From Actinomycetes bacterium (GTDB lineage Bacteria > Auribacterota > JAJCYG01): a stretch of 64,000 bases of DNA. Below are positions 6,006-31,246 of this stretch, piece after piece. Each line of letters opens with the position of its first letter. The first letter of the stretch is position 1. Under the pieces are notes generated by a model, which saw only the letters and a program-made list of their open reading frames with translations, was not told the DNA's origin and ran no database searches. Both the position numbers and the translations under genes were made by a program. The DNA lies in the NCBI GenBank assembly GCA_029263055.1, contig JAJCYG010000002.1, positions 21,362 to 85,361 of the forward strand, given 5' to 3'.

Positions 6006-8306
6006 ATGAAACGAAGCTGTTTTCCTCGCTGGTCTGTCCTGTTAATCACTCTTCTAACTTTTTCACCCTTGAATATACCGATTCTGTCGCAAAACTATTT
6101 AGCTCCGACCCGTTCTGGAGTCAATATTGTTTATGAAAAACTACAAGTAGGGTCTGTTTATTCTGCTTCTGCTTCAGTTGATGAAAATCGACAAAATGGG
6201 TATGCAGGTTTTTCTTTAGATCATAATTGGCCACATTTAAACAAAGAACTTACAACCGCTTTATTTGGTGGTAGCTATGGAATAGATGGTGTGATCCTTC
6301 ACGGTATGCATACCTCTTCATTGAGCTTAGATGCTTTGGCTGAACAGTTGAGTTTAAATGTGAATACAGACTATAAAGTTGTTTCTGAAGAATCAAAATA
6401 TAAGTTTCCTGTGGCCGTTGGAGAGAAAATAGATTTTCAGATGACAGTTCTTAAGATTGATGATGCAGGGATTGCTACTGTTGAAATTATTGGAAAAAAT
6501 TCAGCGGATAAAGTTGTTTTAAAGCAGACTGTTAAGCTCGCTGAATCAGGAGGAACGTCTACAGAATTAGAAGCAGCAGTTGCTTCTAAAGAACCGCCTT
6601 CGAGTTCTTATCTAAGTGAGGTATATCCTTCTTTAGAACCGTTTAAACGAGAAGCACCACCTGTTTATCTTCAAGGAAAAAATCTTTCTTTTCAGTGGAA
6701 CAATGACAGGGCAATTGCTGACTTAAGAGCTCTTTTTTCAGACTCAAAATTTAGCGATGTCAAATTAGCTAAAGCCATTACAACTTATGTGGCAGCTAAA
6801 ATGTTTCCCAGCAATTTGTTTGCGATCTCACGCATTACTGAGATCGATCAAGATATTTCTTTAGAAGGTCCTTTTACCATTGAAGCTGAGGTAGAGAGTT
6901 TTGGAAAAGAGGGTAAGCAGCGAGGGAGAAGTTTGACTCGACTTAAGGTTAAAGATAAAGAAGGAGCTCTTTTGTTTCAAGCAGAAATTGGAATGTCTGC
7001 TTTTACATATACCCGTGATGAATTAAAAGCATTATCAAGAAGTAGAGATCCTGAAACAAACTTAGCTTCAATCATCCGTGGTAAAAATCAATTTGAACTT
7101 GAAATGATTTTTGATGCTATTTTAAAAGCAGATATCTCTGGAGTTGAATTTATTGATGAGTACCATAAAGCGATTGCGGAAGATCCTGGAAAGACTTTAG
7201 ATGCAGCAAAAGCTCTCTTGGCAGAAAAAGAATTAAAAGTGGCTGTTGTGGGTGTTGGCGGTATTGGTGGAGGTGTGGCTGAAGCATTGGGGCAAATACC
7301 AGGAGTTAAGTTGACTGTGATTACTCGCAGTGATGCAGGTGCTACACGACTTCGTGAAAAATTTGCTAATGCTGGGATTACAGAGTACGAAGAAGTTCGT
7401 TTGCGACCAGCTGCGACTGTTTTTGAGCCGTTAAAAGAGGTGATTGATAGTCTTTACCTAAGAATTGATGCGTTTCGAAGACTTTCTGAGTCATTACCTA
7501 CTTTGAAATCAATGATGGAATTGATTCGAGGTAAAGCAAACGAAAGAGAATTAAATACTGAAAGTTATGTAAAAGCTGTTTTTGAAGCCAAAGAAAAAAT
7601 GGAGGGACTAGATGTACTCTTTATTGGAACTGGAAAAACAGATAACAAAGATACTCTTTTACCGCGTAAATGGGAAACACCTGAAGATATTGTGAAACAT
7701 TTAAAGGTTTCGGGTGATATCACAAATGTGAATCAACGTTATGTTGAAGCAGCCTTTACTGCGGCGGCTGCAAACCGTGCCAACAAAATATTTGTGGTTG
7801 GTTCCGTGCATGGAAAGCATATGGGGAATGCTTTTGTGGCTGCTTATTCTCGGAGTAAAGCTTCCAATGCTCGACTTGCAGAGACTTGGCCTCTAGCTGG
7901 TGCGGCTGACCCTGAATCAATGGGAATTTCTCTTGAAGGGGATTATATTTTGAGTCGGATGACTGCAGGAGTGGCTATGGCTGTTTTGCGTGGAACCAAA
8001 CTCGGCTTTTTTATGACGCCTAAACAGGTGGCTGAAGCTGCGACTTGGTTGATTGCTTATCACCATCATGAAGAGTTAGGATACATGGCAAAGCATCGTA
8101 AAAAAGAAGGTGTGATGATTCCAGATACATCAACAGCCGTTGCTTCAGGTGCGCATCAAGTGGCTGTGCCGGGTGATGCAAGTGTGGCGTTGATTAAAGC
8201 AAAAACAGCACCCACGAAAAAGTTGACGCCTAAGTCTGCTCCAAAAATTGAAACACAATTAAGTGGTGGATTAAGTGCTGCCGCTTTAGTTGGAGCAGCG
8301 ATCTAA
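6006..8306 (+). CDS. Leader-tagged fusion: double MaoC-type hot-dog (enoyl-CoA hydratase/dehydratase) + SDR oxidoreductase
   Basis: I moved the start to ATG 6006 (GAGG 6 nt upstream; the track starts at 5958). Hot-dog 1 is GYAGFSLDHNWPHLN...ILHGMHTSS (around nt 6150-6540). Hot-dog 2 lies around 6600-7010. The SDR Rossmann motif VAVVGVGGIGGG is near nt 7249 and the catalytic YSRSK (YxxxK) near nt 7846. Leader ...LNIPILSQNYLAPTRS; C-terminus ...LVGAAI. Confidence 0.75.
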   Translation: MKRSCFPRWSVLLITLLTFSPLNIPILSQNYLAPTRSGVNIVYEKLQVGSVYSASASVDENRQNGYAGFSLDHNWPHLNKELTTALFGGSYGIDGVILHGMHTSSLSLDALAEQLSLNVNTDYKVVSEESKYKFPVAVGEKIDFQMTVLKIDDAGIATVEIIGKNSADKVVLKQTVKLAESGGTSTELEAAVASKEPPSSSYLSEVYPSLEPFKREAPPVYLQGKNLSFQWNNDRAIADLRALFSDSKFSDVKLAKAITTYVAAKMFPSNLFAISRITEIDQDISLEGPFTIEAEVESFGKEGKQRGRSLTRLKVKDKEGALLFQAEIGMSAFTYTRDELKALSRSRDPETNLASIIRGKNQFELEMIFDAILKADISGVEFIDEYHKAIAEDPGKTLDAAKALLAEKELKVAVVGVGGIGGGVAEALGQIPGVKLTVITRSDAGATRLREKFANAGITEYEEVRLRPAATVFEPLKEVIDSLYLRIDAFRRLSESLPTLKSMMELIRGKANERELNTESYVKAVFEAKEKMEGLDVLFIGTGKTDNKDTLLPRKWETPEDIVKHLKVSGDITNVNQRYVEAAFTAAAANRANKIFVVGSVHGKHMGNAFVAAYSRSKASNARLAETWPLAGAADPESMGISLEGDYILSRMTAGVAMAVLRGTKLGFFMTPKQVAEAATWLIAYHHHEELGYMAKHRKKEGVMIPDTSTAVASGAHQVAVPGDASVALIKAKTAPTKKLTPKSAPKIETQLSGGLSAAALVGAAI

Positions 8307-8307
8307 A

Positions 8308-29911: not shown

Positions 29912-31246
29912 ATGAAGCAAAAACAGTCTCGAATCTTAGCCTTTTGTCTGACCTTTCTGTTGGTCTTTTCATTAACAAACACCTATGCCTTAGCACCAGC
30001 CAGCTCTTCGACTAAGCTCTTATCTCAGCTATTAAAAGAATGGGTCACCTCTGAAGTTCTTCTTCCTGGCGAGTTTTTAGGCACGCAATTTCCAAAATCA
30101 GTTGGAATTGTAGGGGTTGCCACAACGTATCCTTCAAGAAAAATGACCAATCAAGACTTGGTGGCTGAAGCCGATCGAGTTTTGCCTGGGGTTAAGCTTC
30201 GTTTAAAATCTTTGGGATTAGAGTATCGAGATTCAAGACATTACCGTGACCCAGCCGCGTTTGAGGCAAAGGGAACAGGCATTACTTCACGCCAATGGTT
30301 TGATCCTGATAACGATATTCCTTCAGAAATGGCAGCCCAAGCTTTAATTGAAGCATTGGAACAAGCGGGTTATCCATTAGAAAAAATCACATGGAGGCTA
30401 CGTCCTTGGTTGATTGGTGTGTCTACTTATGGAGCTGAATTATTGAGTCCAGGTTTGGGACCACTTGTGAACCGTTATTTAAACCTCCCGTTTCCTCTTC
30501 CTTCTATTTCAGCCGATGCGGTCTGTCCCGGCTGGATTGCAGCGGTGGCTGACCTTCTTCCCAAAGTGGCGACAGGAATGGCCGGTTTAGGGCTGATTCC
30601 GGTTTTAGAATATTACAGTCGTTATTTGCGACCTGACTCAGGTTCTTCCTGGCCTATTTTTGGTGATATGGCGGCAGGGACTGTCTTGGCTGAAGTTGAA
30701 AAAGGTAAAGGGATTTTGTGGGGTCTGTATCAAACAGATGGAAAACCAACTTATTTGAGTCAAGAAGCGCGTGGCAAGGCGATCGGAGATGTGACATTGG
30801 CCCATATTATTAAAACCCAACATGAAGGTTTTTTTGGAATGCATGGCCAAGCTGTTGGAGCCATGGCTGAAATGACAGGCGAGTTTGCTGTGAAGCGAAT
30901 GGCTCATGTGATGAAACAAGAGGGACTAGGTTCTTTAGATGATGTGAATTGGTTTGTGTTTCACCAAGCGAATAAAGGACTGATCTTAAAACTAGCAAAG
31001 AAACTCGGTATTGAGGAATCTAAACTGGTGTTTACTATGGAAGAGTTTGGAAACACTTCTGCAGCTTCGATTCCTTTAACATTAGATGTGCACCGCGCCA
31101 AATTTAAACCAGGTGATTTAGTTTTTATGGGGACCTTTGGCGGAGGTTTTCAGTGGGGAGCCTTATTAGTTGAGTGGTCTGAGATGAAAGTAACCACATC
31201 TCAAATACCTCTTCCTTTACAAGCTAGCTTAAACGCCTCACTTTAA
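29912..31246 (+). CDS. Leader-tagged KAS III / FabH-like condensing enzyme
   Basis: 444 aa. Its ATG directly abuts the TAA of the upstream gene. Cys-His-Asn triad contexts: DAVCPGWIAAV, FVFHQANKGLI, GNTSAASIPL. Leader MKQKQSRILAFCLTFLLVFSLTNTYALAPASS; C-terminus ...LNASL. Confidence 0.8.
   Translation: MKQKQSRILAFCLTFLLVFSLTNTYALAPASSSTKLLSQLLKEWVTSEVLLPGEFLGTQFPKSVGIVGVATTYPSRKMTNQDLVAEADRVLPGVKLRLKSLGLEYRDSRHYRDPAAFEAKGTGITSRQWFDPDNDIPSEMAAQALIEALEQAGYPLEKITWRLRPWLIGVSTYGAELLSPGLGPLVNRYLNLPFPLPSISADAVCPGWIAAVADLLPKVATGMAGLGLIPVLEYYSRYLRPDSGSSWPIFGDMAAGTVLAEVEKGKGILWGLYQTDGKPTYLSQEARGKAIGDVTLAHIIKTQHEGFFGMHGQAVGAMAEMTGEFAVKRMAHVMKQEGLGSLDDVNWFVFHQANKGLILKLAKKLGIEESKLVFTMEEFGNTSAASIPLTLDVHRAKFKPGDLVFMGTFGGGFQWGALLVEWSEMKVTTSQIPLPLQASLNASL

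What the first reader, a model, noticed from the sequence alone, without database searches (positions are those of the whole stretch)
6006..31246. Every enzyme family of an ethylmalonyl-CoA-type (crotonyl-CoA-carboxylating) pathway is condensed into five leader-tagged polypeptides
Seen, at motif level. The domains present are: KAS III condensing enzyme (29912-31246); SDR reductase plus double MaoC hot-dog (6006-8306); Ccr-like MDR reductase/carboxylase plus VOC epimerase-like domain (9353-13171); CitE/malyl-CoA-lyase-like, double MaoC hot-dog, AMP-forming ligase and acyl-CoA dehydrogenase (13204-21360); and B12 acyl-CoA mutase plus carboxyltransferase (21473-29911). Established knowledge. The ethylmalonyl-CoA pathway uses exactly these families in order. 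C4 formation uses a thiolase or condensing enzyme. PhaB-type SDR and (R)-enoyl-CoA hydratase follow. Then come Ccr, ethylmalonyl/methylmalonyl-CoA epimerase (VOC fold), B12 ethylmalonyl-CoA mutase, methylsuccinyl-CoA dehydrogenase (ACAD), mesaconyl-CoA hydratase (two MaoC domains) and malyl/beta-methylmalyl-CoA lyase (CitE family). Propionyl-CoA carboxylase and methylmalonyl-CoA mutase complete it. Inference. The cluster may encode a complete C2/CO2 assimilation route as substrate-channelling megaenzymes. Together with the enolase-PEPCK fusion there would be three carboxylating activities. Substrate specificities cannot be read from the sequence. The 3-hydroxypropionate bi-cycle or a related route uses overlapping families and is an alternative. 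No biotin carboxylase or BCCP domain is visible in the window.
Basis: partly seen in the sequence, partly recalled or inferred. Interest (0 to 1): 0.9.

Follow-up and report, generated by a model that had tools for sequence, protein, structure and literature searches.

The report
Fused, leader-tagged ethylmalonyl-CoA pathway genes
An uncultured biofilm bacterium encodes every enzyme type of the ethylmalonyl-CoA route for building larger molecules from acetate plus CO2, packed into five giant fused proteins that each start with an export-like signal, which is a strange place to find enzymes that need ATP, CoA and vitamin B12.

Summary
Window 6006-31246 carries five intact ORFs (766-2812 aa). 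Together they hold a KAS III enzyme, an SDR-like reductase and two double MaoC hydratases. They also hold a crotonyl-CoA carboxylase/reductase (Ccr) domain, a methylmalonyl-CoA-epimerase-like VOC domain and a B12 acyl-CoA mutase. The rest are an AccA/AccD-type carboxyltransferase, an acyl-CoA ligase, an acyl-CoA dehydrogenase and a CitE-like lyase. Four domains best match the pathway-specific enzymes: Ccr (all four CO2-pocket residues kept), methylsuccinyl-CoA dehydrogenase (arginine triad kept), malyl-CoA lyase and the epimerase. The mutase keeps the carboxylate-binding residues but does not branch with known ethylmalonyl-CoA mutases, so that step is open. The cluster and its leaders recur in at least three other metagenomic lineages (47-52% identity). 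A leaderless fused version occurs in a groundwater contig. The leader is a Sec-like signal followed by [LIM][AS]Px[ST]. It marks about 100 proteins in this genome, many of them cytoplasm-type, ATP-using enzymes. The partner proteins (biotin carboxylase, BCCP, EtfAB, MeaB) carry no leader. Best reading: a real ethylmalonyl-CoA-type pathway in fused form, whose cellular location is unresolved.

The parts
6006..8306 (+). P1 (766 aa from Met at 6006). Parts: leader (MKRSCFPRWSVLLITLLTF...NYLAPT); double MaoC hot-dog at about nt 6171-7016; Rossmann/SDR-like reductase at about nt 7236-7892.
   Evidence: Pfam MaoC 1.3e-10. Homology of aa 72-353 to the P3 double hot-dog. ApbA/adh_short sub-threshold hits. 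GVGGIG and S616/Y630/K634 motifs.
8308..9126 (-). Small divergent ORF (272 aa) with a variant leader (..NYLAATSE). Function unknown. It is conserved in the cluster of related lineages.
   Evidence: ORF list. No Pfam family. The syntenic 212-aa and 242-aa ORFs of the relatives carry the leader FLAPTSE.
9353..13171 (+). P2 (1272 aa). Parts: leader; Ccr-type enoyl-CoA carboxylase/reductase split into nt 10013-10693 and 12038-12505 by an insertion of about 450 aa (10694-12037); methylmalonyl-CoA-epimerase-like VOC domain at about nt 12659-13045.
   Evidence: TIGR01751 at 184 bits. PDB Ccr 4gi2 at 1.6e-38 in two stretches, with N81/F170(Y)/E171/H365 equivalents conserved. 36-37% identity to bona fide Ccr. 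VOC model and Foldseek and atlas search.
13204..21360 (+). P3 (2718 aa). Parts: leader; malyl-CoA-lyase-like CitE/HpcH barrel at nt 13825-14634; conserved domain of unknown fold at about nt 15253-15744; double MaoC hot-dog at nt 16783-17643; AMP-forming acyl-CoA ligase at nt 17758-19476; methylsuccinyl-CoA-dehydrogenase-like ACAD at nt 19972-21300.
   Evidence: Pfam and NCBIfam. Profile against PDB. PDB 8ciw at 1.4e-85 and 6es9 at 2e-55, with R252/R376/R421/S248/T418/F287/E535 conserved (residues from PMC5798300). The unknown domain is shared with P0129 and P0131.
21473..29911 (+). P4 (2812 aa). Parts: leader; acyl-CoA mutase alpha barrel at nt 21770-23707; beta-like barrel at nt 23975-24814; B12-binding domain with DxHxxG at nt 25136-25510; AccA-like carboxyltransferase half at nt 26726-27139; AccD-like half at nt 28073-28645. 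Long unassigned stretches lie between them.
   Evidence: Pfam and NCBIfam. PDB MCM hits and residue alignment. PDB AccA/AccD hits. Tree.
29912..31246 (+). P5 (444 aa). Leader plus a KAS III-type condensing enzyme with an intact Cys-His-Asn triad.
   Evidence: ACP_syn_III_C 4e-28 and FabH models. Motifs AVCPGW, FHQAN and GNTSAAS are conserved with the ortholog in L001.
31262..34237 (+). P6 (991 aa). Leader-tagged protein at the end of the operon. It has a DxDxT (HAD-like) motif near the N-terminus and only a weak GNAT lead at the C-terminus. It is absent from the related locus L001, so membership of the pathway is doubtful.
   Evidence: No Pfam or NCBIfam family. Acetyltransf_1 E=0.04. Atlas score 0.76 for GNAT clusters. 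L001 gene list.

Best explanation
The cluster encodes an ethylmalonyl-CoA (EMC)-type pathway whose enzymes have been fused into a few giant polypeptides.

Inferred order of reactions:
1. The acyl-CoA ligase domain activates a short acid.
2. The AccA/AccD carboxyltransferase, fed by a separately encoded biotin carboxylase and BCCP, makes malonyl-CoA and/or methylmalonyl-CoA.
3. The KAS III enzyme condenses acetyl-CoA with malonyl-CoA to a C4 3-ketoacyl thioester.
4. The P1 reductase and hot-dog hydratase convert this to crotonyl-CoA.
5. The Ccr domain reductively carboxylates crotonyl-CoA with NADPH and CO2.
6. The fused VOC domain epimerises ethylmalonyl-CoA.
7. The B12 mutase rearranges it to methylsuccinyl-CoA.
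8. The Mcd-like flavoenzyme oxidises that to mesaconyl-CoA.
9. The second double hot-dog hydrates it.
10. The malyl-CoA-lyase-like domain releases glyoxylate and propionyl-CoA.

Shown: which domains are present, their closest characterised families, and the conservation of their substrate-binding and catalytic residues.
Inferred: the substrates, the order of reactions, any channelling, and the compartment.

Every polypeptide begins with a Sec-like signal followed by a lineage-specific [LIM][AS]Px[ST] motif. So the whole pathway is co-addressed to one place, and that place is not known.
For: Each pathway-specific step has its best match in the EMC enzyme:
- Ccr: TIGR01751 is far ahead of other MDR models, and the four CO2-pocket residues are kept.
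- Mcd: 291 and 192 bits against about 150 for other ACADs. The Arg252/376/421 triad and Glu535 are kept.
- Malyl-CoA lyase: E=4e-21, against 1e-7 for CitE/CLYBL.
- Methylmalonyl-CoA epimerase fold.
- The mutase keeps Tyr89/Arg207/Tyr243/His244 and DxHxxG.
- The KAS III triad is intact.

Gene layout: the ORFs from P2 to P6 are spaced 0-112 nt apart on one strand.

Conservation: the cluster, its leaders and its flanking genes are conserved at 47-52% identity in L001/L002, in the contig of P0126 and in L187/L188. Catalytic domains are 64-82% identical and linkers 12-40%.

Independent co-occurrence: a leaderless contig from groundwater has a mutase fragment. Next comes one 2148-aa protein with CitE-like, 3-hydroxyacyl-CoA dehydrogenase, Ccr-like, epimerase and MaoC domains, then an ACAD with an N-terminal extension. 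The same enzyme set therefore co-occurs and fuses independently of the leader.

Partners: BC, BCCP, EtfAB and MeaB are encoded elsewhere in the genome.
Against: - The mutase alpha domain groups with unfused metagenomic proteins (P0005, P0006) inside the split-type MCM-like radiation. It does not group with three Ecm sequences identified by adjacency to ccr. At Ecm-versus-Mcm discriminating columns it is neither (20 Ecm-like, 27 Mcm-like, 68 other).
- The VOC domain has Cys and Gln where methylmalonyl-CoA epimerase has His ligands (the register was read by eye).
- The SDR is below Pfam thresholds.
- The ligase resembles medium- or long-chain and malonyl-CoA ligases, not acetyl-CoA synthetase.
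- The leader has the n- and h-regions of a Sec signal. BCCP, BC, EtfAB and MeaB have no leader, so an exported pathway would lack its partners and its cofactor pools.
- The genome already has a malate synthase-isocitrate lyase fusion and canonical leaderless MCM, epimerase and MeaB.
- No expression data are available.
Confidence: 0.6

Rival explanations
1. The same domains run a related but different CoA-ester cycle of the 3-hydroxypropionate / HOPAC type. The Ccr domain would carboxylate acrylyl-CoA to methylmalonyl-CoA. The epimerase and an MCM-type mutase would give succinyl-CoA. The Mcd-like enzyme would oxidise succinyl-CoA to fumaryl-CoA. The hot-dog hydratase and the lyase would give malyl-CoA and then acetyl-CoA + glyoxylate. 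That would be a natural CO2-fixing cycle with two carboxylations.
For: - The mutase is phylogenetically MCM-like rather than Ecm-like, and it is fused to a carboxyltransferase.
- The ACAD is closest to Pseudomonas migulae Mcd, the homolog with the best succinyl-CoA activity. It has Val where A282V in the Cereibacter (Rhodobacter) sphaeroides enzyme raised the oxidase activity with succinyl-CoA.
- The adjacent ligase and hot-dog domains recall propionyl-CoA synthase. The propionyl-CoA synthase structure 6eqo matches P2, the separate polypeptide that carries the Ccr domain (query aa 229-445).
Against: - No malonyl-CoA reductase-like protein was recognised in the cluster.
- KAS III and the P1 reductase-hydratase pair have no role in such a cycle, yet they are conserved in the cluster.
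- The groundwater relative fuses a 3-hydroxyacyl-CoA dehydrogenase to the Ccr domain, which points to C4 chemistry.
Confidence: 0.13
2. The proteins really are exported, because the leader is a working secretion signal. They would act outside the cytoplasm: in an internal membrane-bounded compartment of this PVC-like bacterium, or inside a prey or host cell. They would form part of a second, leader-addressed set of central-carbon enzymes.
For: - The leader has Sec-type features: net charge +1.9 before an uncharged run of median 14 aa, with the motif about 10 aa later.
- The motif is enriched 15-20 fold at aa 20-50 and is found on about 100 ORFs.
- Tagged proteins include Ser/Thr kinases, pentapeptide-repeat proteins, a PPDK domain, a ROK kinase, FBPase, glycogen phosphorylase and enolase-PEPCK.
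- Leaderless paralogs exist for PEPCK, MCM, epimerase, ACAD and ligases.
Against: - No leader-tagged BCCP, BC, ETF or MeaB was found.
- No twin-arginine motif was seen in the leaders read by eye, so there is no sign of export in the folded, cofactor-loaded state.
- No microcompartment shell genes were found.
- There is no microscopy and no proteomics. ATP, CoA, NADPH and adenosylcobalamin pools outside the cytoplasm are unprecedented for free-living bacteria.
Confidence: 0.2
3. The cluster makes a specialised metabolite. It would be an alkylmalonyl- or alkylsuccinyl-CoA building block of the kind used for the actinonin and matlystatin warheads or for polyketide extender units, not a central assimilation route.
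For: Ccr homologs together with an epimerase and an Ecm-like mutase are used this way in actinomycetes (abstract of PMC5719088, listed). KAS III, a reductase, a dehydratase and an enoyl reductase are also the four activities of a chain-elongation cycle.
Against: - No NRPS, PKS, ACP or tailoring genes lie in the cluster.
- Mcd-like, hydratase and malyl-CoA-lyase-like domains belong to the cleavage half of the EMC pathway.
- The neighbours are PEPCK, enolase-PEPCK and fumarase.
Confidence: 0.04
4. The enzyme-like domains are no longer catalysts. They would be relics inside large secreted or surface proteins of a lineage that builds many giant proteins.
For: - The genome has 98 ORFs of 1000 aa or more, the longest of 19,496 aa.
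- Large parts of P2-P4 have no recognisable family.
- The sequences are very divergent, only about 30% identical to the nearest mutases.
Against: Catalytic and substrate-binding residues are kept in Ccr, Mcd, the mutase, KAS III and the lyase. The catalytic domains are the best conserved parts across lineages.
Confidence: 0.03

Closest known systems
Ethylmalonyl-CoA pathway of Alphaproteobacteria and actinomycetes (Ccr, Epi, Ecm, Mcd, Mch, Mcl1; established knowledge, and for Mcd)
   Same: The same set of enzyme families is present. Ccr, Mcd, malyl-CoA lyase and the epimerase are each the closest characterised match. The CO2-pocket residues of Ccr and the arginine triad of Mcd are conserved.
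   Different: - The enzymes are fused into 766-2812-aa polypeptides, and Ccr is split by an insertion of about 450 aa.
- The mutase has an alpha barrel, a beta-like barrel and a B12 domain in one chain, fused to an AccA/AccD carboxyltransferase. It lies outside the Ecm clade.
- C4 formation is by a KAS III enzyme instead of a thiolase.
- Every polypeptide has an export-like leader.
Propionyl-CoA synthase of the 3-hydroxypropionate bi-cycle (PDB 6eqo), a natural three-domain ligase-dehydratase-reductase fusion
   Same: It is a natural fusion of CoA-ester enzymes of a carbon-assimilation route. Its reductase domain is a detectable homolog of the P2 Ccr domain (E=1e-12).
   Different: It has one polypeptide with three steps, no leader and a different pathway. 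Here at least ten catalytic domains are spread over five polypeptides.
Leaderless fused proteins from metagenomes: P0131 (2148 aa, groundwater), P0129, P0132 and P0133
   Same: They share the CitE-like barrel, an otherwise orphan domain after it, and MaoC. P0131 also has Ccr-like and epimerase domains, and a mutase and a long ACAD next door.
   Different: They have no leader and a different domain order. P0131 uses a 3HCDH-type dehydrogenase. They are only 32-36% identical in the shared domain.
Pseudomonas migulae and Paracoccus denitrificans (2S)-methylsuccinyl-CoA dehydrogenases (PDB 8ciw, 6es9)
   Same: These are the best PDB matches of the ACAD domain. The catalytic Glu, the three Arg, Ser248, Thr418 and Phe287 are conserved.
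   Different: - Position Ala285 (Paracoccus) / Ile275 (P. migulae) is Val here.
- There is an insertion of about 30 aa in the beta domain.
- The N-terminal extension of Mcd was not detected by sequence.
- The domain is the C-terminus of a 2718-aa protein.

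Membership tests
Ethylmalonyl-CoA pathway | A crotonyl-CoA carboxylase/reductase with the CO2-binding residues (Asn81, Phe170, Glu171, His365 in Kitasatospora setae numbering; recalled from the literature) | tested here: met
   TIGR01751 is the best model at 184 bits, below its 378-bit cut-off because the domain is split. The alignment to 6na3 and 4gi2 shows N, Y (as in the Methylobacterium enzyme), E and H at these positions.
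Ethylmalonyl-CoA pathway | An ethylmalonyl-CoA mutase belonging to the Ecm subclade of B12 acyl-CoA mutases | tested here: not met
   In the maximum-likelihood tree the domain groups with P0005 and P0006 within split-type MCM-like proteins (support 100/99). The three Ecm sequences, identified by adjacency to ccr, form a separate clade. The carboxylate-binding Tyr89, Arg207 and His244 are kept, so activity on ethylmalonyl-CoA is not excluded.
Ethylmalonyl-CoA pathway | A (2S)-methylsuccinyl-CoA dehydrogenase with the Arg252/Arg376/Arg421 cluster and catalytic Glu535 | tested here: met
   8ciw at 1.4e-85 and 6es9 at 2e-55. All three Arg, Ser248, Thr418, Phe287 and Glu535 align. Ala285 is Val.
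Ethylmalonyl-CoA pathway | A mesaconyl-CoA hydratase (two MaoC / (R)-hydratase domains in one chain) | tested here: inconclusive
   A double hot-dog is present in P3 (aa 1195-1481) and another in P1. The best PDB matches are generic (R)-hydratases, and no comparison with a characterised Mch was possible.
Ethylmalonyl-CoA pathway | A malyl-CoA/beta-methylmalyl-CoA lyase of the CitE/HpcH superfamily | tested here: met
   Profile search: 4l9y at 4e-21, 5ugr at 1e-18, Chloroflexus lyase at 8e-11, CitE/CLYBL at 1e-7. The PK, IE and D motifs of the barrel are conserved between lineages.
Ethylmalonyl-CoA pathway | An ethylmalonyl/methylmalonyl-CoA epimerase (VOC fold with a His/Gln/His/Glu metal site) | tested here: inconclusive
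   The fold matches the epimerases first. The residues at the presumed ligand positions are Cys/His/Gln/Glu rather than His/Gln/His/Glu (register read by eye).
Ethylmalonyl-CoA pathway | Demonstrated flux from crotonyl-CoA + CO2 to glyoxylate + propionyl-CoA | not testable with these tools
   Needs enzyme assays or labelling.
Biotin-dependent acyl-CoA carboxylase | Carboxyltransferase together with biotin carboxylase and BCCP | tested here: met
   AccA-like and AccD-like halves are in P4. Two BC and two BCCP genes lie elsewhere in the genome, all without a leader. Whether they serve the P4 carboxyltransferase is unknown.
KAS III / acetoacetyl-CoA synthase-type condensing enzymes | Cys-His-Asn catalytic triad | tested here: met
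   AVCPGW, FHQAN and GNTSAAS are conserved in P5 and its ortholog. Preference for an ACP or a CoA substrate was not tested.
Sec-type signal peptide | A positively charged n-region, an h-region of 7-15 aa and a signal-peptidase site | tested here: inconclusive
   The n- and h-regions fit. Some members have an AxA-like site right before the motif, but most have Tyr, Phe or Asn at -1 and Pro at +3 of the motif. No predictor and no experiment were available.
3-Hydroxypropionate bi-cycle | Malonyl-CoA reductase and propionyl-CoA synthase | tested here: not met
   No such architecture is among the window's ORFs. The rest of the genome was not searched for them.

The most novel reading that the evidence does not exclude
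This uncultured PVC-like bacterium addresses a second, parallel set of central-carbon enzymes to a non-cytoplasmic but energised destination by means of a Sec-like leader carrying the [LIM][AS]Px[ST] motif. The set would include a complete CO2-incorporating EMC-type pathway, an enolase-PEPCK fusion, gluconeogenic enzymes and protein kinases. The destination would be an internal membrane-bounded compartment or the cytoplasm of a prey or host cell. The fused megaenzymes would then be the metabolic core of a bacterial organelle, or an injected metabolic take-over kit.
Probability: 0.15. Interest if true: 0.95.

Novelty: new variant of a known kind. Interest (0 to 1): 0.8.

Why it matters
The ethylmalonyl-CoA pathway is known as a set of separate soluble enzymes, mainly in Alphaproteobacteria and actinomycetes. 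Its Ccr is the fastest known carboxylase and the core of synthetic CO2-fixation cycles. A natural version fused into megaenzymes, in a distant uncultured lineage, raises three points:
- It would offer ready-made scaffolds for studying or borrowing substrate channelling between CoA-ester enzymes.
- It extends the phylogenetic range of the pathway.
- It shows an acyl-CoA mutase architecture not described before: alpha barrel, beta-like barrel, B12 domain and carboxyltransferase in one chain.

Every polypeptide carries the same export-like leader, and that leader also marks about 100 other cytoplasm-type proteins. This poses a sharp and testable question about protein sorting and possible compartmentation in this lineage.

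Tried and rejected
- **Naming the organism.** An exact look-up of RpoB gave no name and the atlas gave no taxa. Only the RpoB scan helped: the best named matches are Verrucomicrobiota at 60-64%. The genome tool's 'phylum' holds only 79 species, so the placement stays loose.
- **Scans for relatives.** Scans of genome contigs with P3 and of JGI metagenome contigs with A5 and with P4 found no relatives.
- **The genome behind L187.** It is not held.
- **Ecm signature residues.** The Erb 2008 paper is not held. Plasmid tblastn hits H1 and H6 were not Ecm. Ecm references were obtained instead from genomes with ccr next to the mutase.
- **Context of P0005.** No DNA could be read and the neighbours are uninformative.
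- **AlphaFold model of P3 aa 190-900.** Mean pLDDT was 43, so it was not used for any fold search.
- **A second CitE-like barrel at P3 aa 500-900.** hhalign found only an overlap artefact, so the idea was dropped.
- **Relaxed Pfam scan of ten unassigned segments.** It gave nothing beyond the Rossmann/SDR traces and an N-terminal extension of the CitE match.
- **P6.** Only a weak GNAT lead.
- **Microcompartment idea.** No BMC shell gene was found in a genome that is 96.8% complete.
- **RNA evidence.** No RNA holder is listed. The only runs are DNA from one biofilm-metagenome study.
- **Regulatory elements.** Rfam found no family in the window. The promoter and terminator scan found fewer sites than in the shuffled controls.

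Full report
**1. What is in the sequence**

The region holds six large ORFs on the + strand and one small ORF on the - strand:

| Name | Window coordinates | Length |
|---|---|---|
| P1 | 5958/6006-8306 | 766 aa from the Met at 6006 |
| small reverse ORF | 8308-9126 (-) | 272 aa |
| P2 | 9353-13171 | 1272 aa |
| P3 | 13201/13204-21360 | 2718 aa |
| P4 | 21473-29911 | 2812 aa |
| P5 | 29912-31246 | 444 aa |
| P6 | 31262-34237 | 991 aa |

P2 to P6 are 0-112 nt apart and look like one operon. G+C content (0.38-0.42) is the same as in the rest of the window. The window is contig C2 of a 2.95-Mb metagenome-assembled genome that is 96.8% complete and 1.9% contaminated. It comes from a biofilm metagenome.

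The closest named RpoB sequences are Verrucomicrobiota at 60-64% identity. The genome tool places the organism alone in its family, inside a 'phylum' of only 79 species genomes. I therefore call it PVC-like and no more.

**2. Domain content**

*P4*
- An acyl-CoA mutase alpha barrel (MM_CoA_mutase, 387 bits).
- A second, beta-subunit-like barrel (TIGR00642, 130 bits).
- A B12-binding domain.
- An AccA-like and then an AccD-like carboxyltransferase half. The PDB AccA/AccD hits agree.

*P3*
- An HpcH/CitE barrel.
- Two MaoC-type hot-dog domains.
- An AMP-forming ligase. Its best models are long-chain and malonyl-CoA ligases at 218-259 bits, not acetyl-CoA synthetase.
- A complete acyl-CoA dehydrogenase.

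*P5*
- A KAS III enzyme with its Cys-His-Asn triad intact.

*P2*
- An MDR domain whose best model by a wide margin is crotonyl-CoA carboxylase/reductase (TIGR01751, 184 bits; the next model scores 45).
- The domain is split. Residues 221-447 match Ccr positions of about 54-280, and residues 896-1051 match positions of about 278-448. About 450 residues of unknown nature lie in between.

*P1*
- A double hot-dog at aa 72-353, homologous to that of P3.
- A Rossmann/SDR-like module seen only below Pfam thresholds. The GVGGIG and Ser616/Tyr630/Lys634 motifs are present.

*The proposed VOC domain at the end of P2*
- It gets no Pfam hit.
- A three-sequence AlphaFold model (pLDDT 68) matches methylmalonyl-CoA epimerases from Mycobacterium, Streptomyces, human and Propionibacterium first (E 1e-7 to 5e-6, TM 0.62-0.70).
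- The language-model search returns VOC/Glyoxalase_4 clusters.

**3. Subfamily and residue tests**

*Ccr.* In the alignments to the Methylobacterium (4gi2) and Kitasatospora (6na3) enzymes, three of the four residues reported to form the CO2 pocket (Asn81, Glu171, His365) are conserved. The numbers are recalled from the literature. Position 170 is Tyr, as in the Methylobacterium enzyme. Identity to bona fide Ccr is 36-37% in the first part and 31-32% in the second.

*ACAD.*
- The best solved relatives are the two (2S)-methylsuccinyl-CoA dehydrogenases: 8ciw from Pseudomonas migulae (291 bits) and 6es9 from Paracoccus (192 bits). Butyryl-CoA and other dehydrogenases score about 150 bits.
- The residues that the Mcd structure paper names as specificity determinants all align: Arg252, Arg376, Arg421, Ser248, Thr418, Phe287 and the catalytic Glu535.
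- Ala285 is Val here.

*Lyase.* A profile of the domain and its ortholog finds malyl-CoA lyases first: 4l9y at E=4e-21 and 5ugr at 1e-18. The Chloroflexus lyase follows at 8e-11 and citrate-lyase-beta/CLYBL proteins at about 1e-7.

*Mutase.*
- Tyr89, Arg207, Tyr243 and His244 (Propionibacterium numbering) and the DxHxxG motif are present. That excludes the isobutyryl-, pivalyl- and hydroxyisobutyryl-CoA mutase types, which replace Tyr89 and Arg207. It fits a 2-carboxyacyl-CoA substrate.
- To separate Ecm from Mcm, I identified three Ecm genes in alphaproteobacterial genomes. They were recognised by adjacency to ccr or by matching score. I then built a tree.
- The query and its ortholog group with two unfused metagenomic proteins (P0005, P0006) on a long branch inside the split-type MCM-like radiation. 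They group neither with Ecm nor with canonical McmA.
- At columns that discriminate Ecm from Mcm the query is Ecm-like at 20, Mcm-like at 27 and different from both at 68.
- The specificity of the mutase is therefore open.

*Epimerase-like domain.* The strands that carry the metal ligands in methylmalonyl-CoA epimerase read CGVCVE, GGIHLD, GIQQVEI and VLxEFVQ. These are invariant in three lineages. The set is similar to, but not the same as, the canonical His/Gln/His/Glu. I assigned the register by eye.

**4. Conservation and relatives**

- Among 5.8 billion proteins, P4 has one full-length homolog (P0002, 52% identity). It is followed by a KAS III gene, as here.
- P2 has two full-length homologs (P0126, 51%; P0127, 47%).
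- The contig of P0127 (NCBI assembly GCA_040960375.1) has the same flanking genes as the window: HhH-GPD, ThiI-like, PrmA, PAPS reductase and a PMT_2 glycosyltransferase. Then come the small reverse ORF, a P2 ortholog, a 2767-aa P3 ortholog and a 1340-aa mutase with a B12 domain that is not fused to a carboxyltransferase.
- The contig of P0126 has a P1-like gene, the small reverse ORF, P2 and P3.
- In L002 the domain order upstream of P4 differs: MaoC comes before CitE.
- Between G000 and L187 the catalytic domains are 64-82% identical and the linkers 12-40%. That is the pattern expected of working enzymes.
- None of the 40 genomes from the same tool-defined phylum that were searched with P3 has the fused protein. 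None of the 78 searched with the Ccr model has a Ccr above its cut-off.

*A more distant, leaderless version*
- The orphan stretch P3 aa 480-1190 has only eight hits among 1.84 billion representatives.
- Four of them are themselves fusions of a CitE/HpcH barrel, the same orphan domain and MaoC.
- One, P0131 (2148 aa, groundwater), has these domains in order: CitE-like; the orphan domain; 3-hydroxyacyl-CoA dehydrogenase; Ccr-like (TIGR01751, 71 bits); methylmalonyl-CoA epimerase (TIGR03081, 43 bits); MaoC.
- P0131 is preceded by a mutase fragment and followed by a 572-aa ACAD with an N-terminal extension.
- None of these has the leader. The same enzyme set therefore travels together and tends to fuse. 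This is independent support for a common pathway.

**5. The leader**

- Every protein of the cluster starts with one to three Lys/Arg, then an uncharged run, then L-[AS]-P-x-[ST] about ten residues later. The same holds for P6, the small reverse ORF (variant LAAT), the enolase-PEPCK fusion at 40934-44308 and the giant ORF from 58303.
- The orthologs in the other lineages keep the leader.
- Genome-wide, the motif occurs 98 times at residues 20-50, out of 194 occurrences in all ORFs of 200 aa or more. That is 15-20 times the background rate.
- 98 ORFs pass a stricter filter. For them the uncharged run has a median of 14 aa, the net charge before it is +1.9, and the residues at -1 are mostly Tyr, Phe or Asn.
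- A Pfam tally of 59 tagged proteins gives six Ser/Thr kinases and three pentapeptide-repeat proteins. It also gives a PPDK nucleotide-binding domain, an ABC ATPase, RNase T and glycogen phosphorylase, together with a ROK kinase, an amino-acid kinase, GlpX-type FBPase and HATPase_c. These are cytoplasm-type, ATP-using domains.
- The genome also has leaderless, canonical counterparts:
  - an operon of MCM large subunit, B12 subunit, MeaB and epimerase;
  - an operon of PccB-like carboxyltransferase, BC, BCCP, thiolase, a mutase, Hbd and crotonase;
  - an ACAD with EtfBA;
  - PEPCK;
  - a malate synthase-isocitrate lyase fusion.
- None of BC, BCCP, EtfAB or MeaB has a leader.
- No microcompartment shell gene was found.

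**6. Interpretation**

*Identity of the pathway.* This is reasonably settled at the level sequence can reach. The domain set, the subfamily matches and the conserved specificity residues fit the ethylmalonyl-CoA pathway better than any alternative. Every domain of P1-P5 has a role in it. The KAS III enzyme together with the carboxyltransferase would replace the usual thiolase as the C4-forming step, as in acetoacetyl-CoA synthase of Streptomyces (recalled, not tested).

*The weak link.* The mutase is MCM-like by descent. If it handles only methylmalonyl-CoA, a HOPAC/3-hydroxypropionate-like cycle becomes the better reading. That cycle would use acrylyl-CoA carboxylation and succinyl-CoA oxidation by the Mcd-like enzyme. 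The closest solved relative of that enzyme has unusually good succinyl-CoA activity. KAS III and the P1 module, and the Hbd domain fused to Ccr in P0131, argue for C4 chemistry and against this rival.

*Location.* This is not settled.
- By its form the leader is a secretion signal.
- By their chemistry the enzymes, and many other tagged proteins, belong where ATP, CoA and NADPH are.
- Their partner proteins are untagged.
- So either the leader tethers or processes proteins at the cytoplasmic face in a way that its charge pattern does not predict, or this lineage has an energised destination outside the cytoplasm.
- I give the first option more weight because of the untagged partners. Neither option was tested.

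**7. Novelty**

The pathway is known. Natural fusion of most of its enzymes into megaproteins is not, to my knowledge. The split Ccr, the alpha/beta-like/B12/carboxyltransferase mutase chain, the occurrence in a PVC-like lineage and the uniform leader are also new to my knowledge. The full-text searches turned up no description of any of them. I rate it a new variant of a known kind. The leader question could lift it higher.

Noticed in passing
Genome-wide; in the window at the N-termini of ORFs starting at 6006, 9126 (- strand), 9353, 13204, 21473, 29912, 31262, 40934 and 58303: A lineage-specific N-terminal leader marks about 100 ORFs. It has Lys/Arg, an uncharged run of about 14 aa, and then [LIM][AS]Px[ST] about 10 aa later. 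Many of the tagged ORFs are very large and many have cytoplasm-type domains such as kinases, FBPase, glycogen phosphorylase and PPDK. The first two motif positions resemble a lipobox, but there is no Cys.
   Followed up: partly
window 40934-44308 (+) and 36779-38464 (+): A leader-tagged enolase-PEPCK(ATP) fusion (1124 aa) lies a few kb from an ordinary leaderless PEPCK(ATP) (561 aa). This is one example of paired tagged and untagged paralogs.
   Followed up: partly
G000:C117:22526-26092 (-), locus L195: A leaderless 1188-aa fusion of malate synthase (N-terminal) and isocitrate lyase (C-terminal). It is a bifunctional glyoxylate-cycle protein of the kind known from nematodes and Euglena.
   Followed up: partly
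L198/L199 1298-7744 (protein P0131), groundwater metagenome contigs: A leaderless 2148-aa protein joins CitE-like, 3-hydroxyacyl-CoA dehydrogenase, Ccr-like, methylmalonyl-CoA epimerase and MaoC domains. It is flanked by a mutase fragment and a 572-aa ACAD. This is a second, independent 'EMC megaenzyme'.
   Followed up: partly
window 4318-5874 (-): A PMT_2 (GT-C, protein O-mannosyltransferase-like) gene sits directly upstream of the cluster. It is syntenic in GCA_040960375.1 (L187). Any link to the Ser/Thr of the leader motif is pure speculation.
   Followed up: no
G000:C42:18586-77076 (+) and other contigs: The genome has 98 ORFs of 1000 aa or more. Among them are ORFs of 19,496, 9,956, 7,493, 7,360 and 6,473 aa. 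The largest ones carry a signal-like N-terminus without the LAP motif.
   Followed up: no
window 38539-40719 (+): A 726-aa protein with several Cro/C1-type HTH_3 units in tandem, lying between the two PEPCK genes.
   Followed up: no
window 58303-63999 (+), continuing to the end of contig C2 (3528 aa): A leader-tagged giant ORF with only weak AAA_5/AAA_16 ATPase matches.
   Followed up: no
G000:C99:1-5638 joined to G000:C15:49365-51865 (contig ends), loci L194 and L197: A leaderless operon split over two contig ends. It encodes a PccB-like carboxyltransferase, biotin carboxylase, BCCP, thiolase, an acyl-CoA mutase large subunit, 3-hydroxyacyl-CoA dehydrogenase and crotonase. The type of the mutase was not determined.
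   Followed up: partly
P4 aa 238-290 (window about 22184-22342) and P2 aa 448-895 (window 10694-12037): Large lineage-specific insertions lie inside otherwise conserved catalytic domains. One is a Lys/Arg/Glu-rich segment inside the mutase barrel. The other is a segment of about 450 aa inside the Ccr cofactor domain, conserved in length in three lineages.
   Followed up: no
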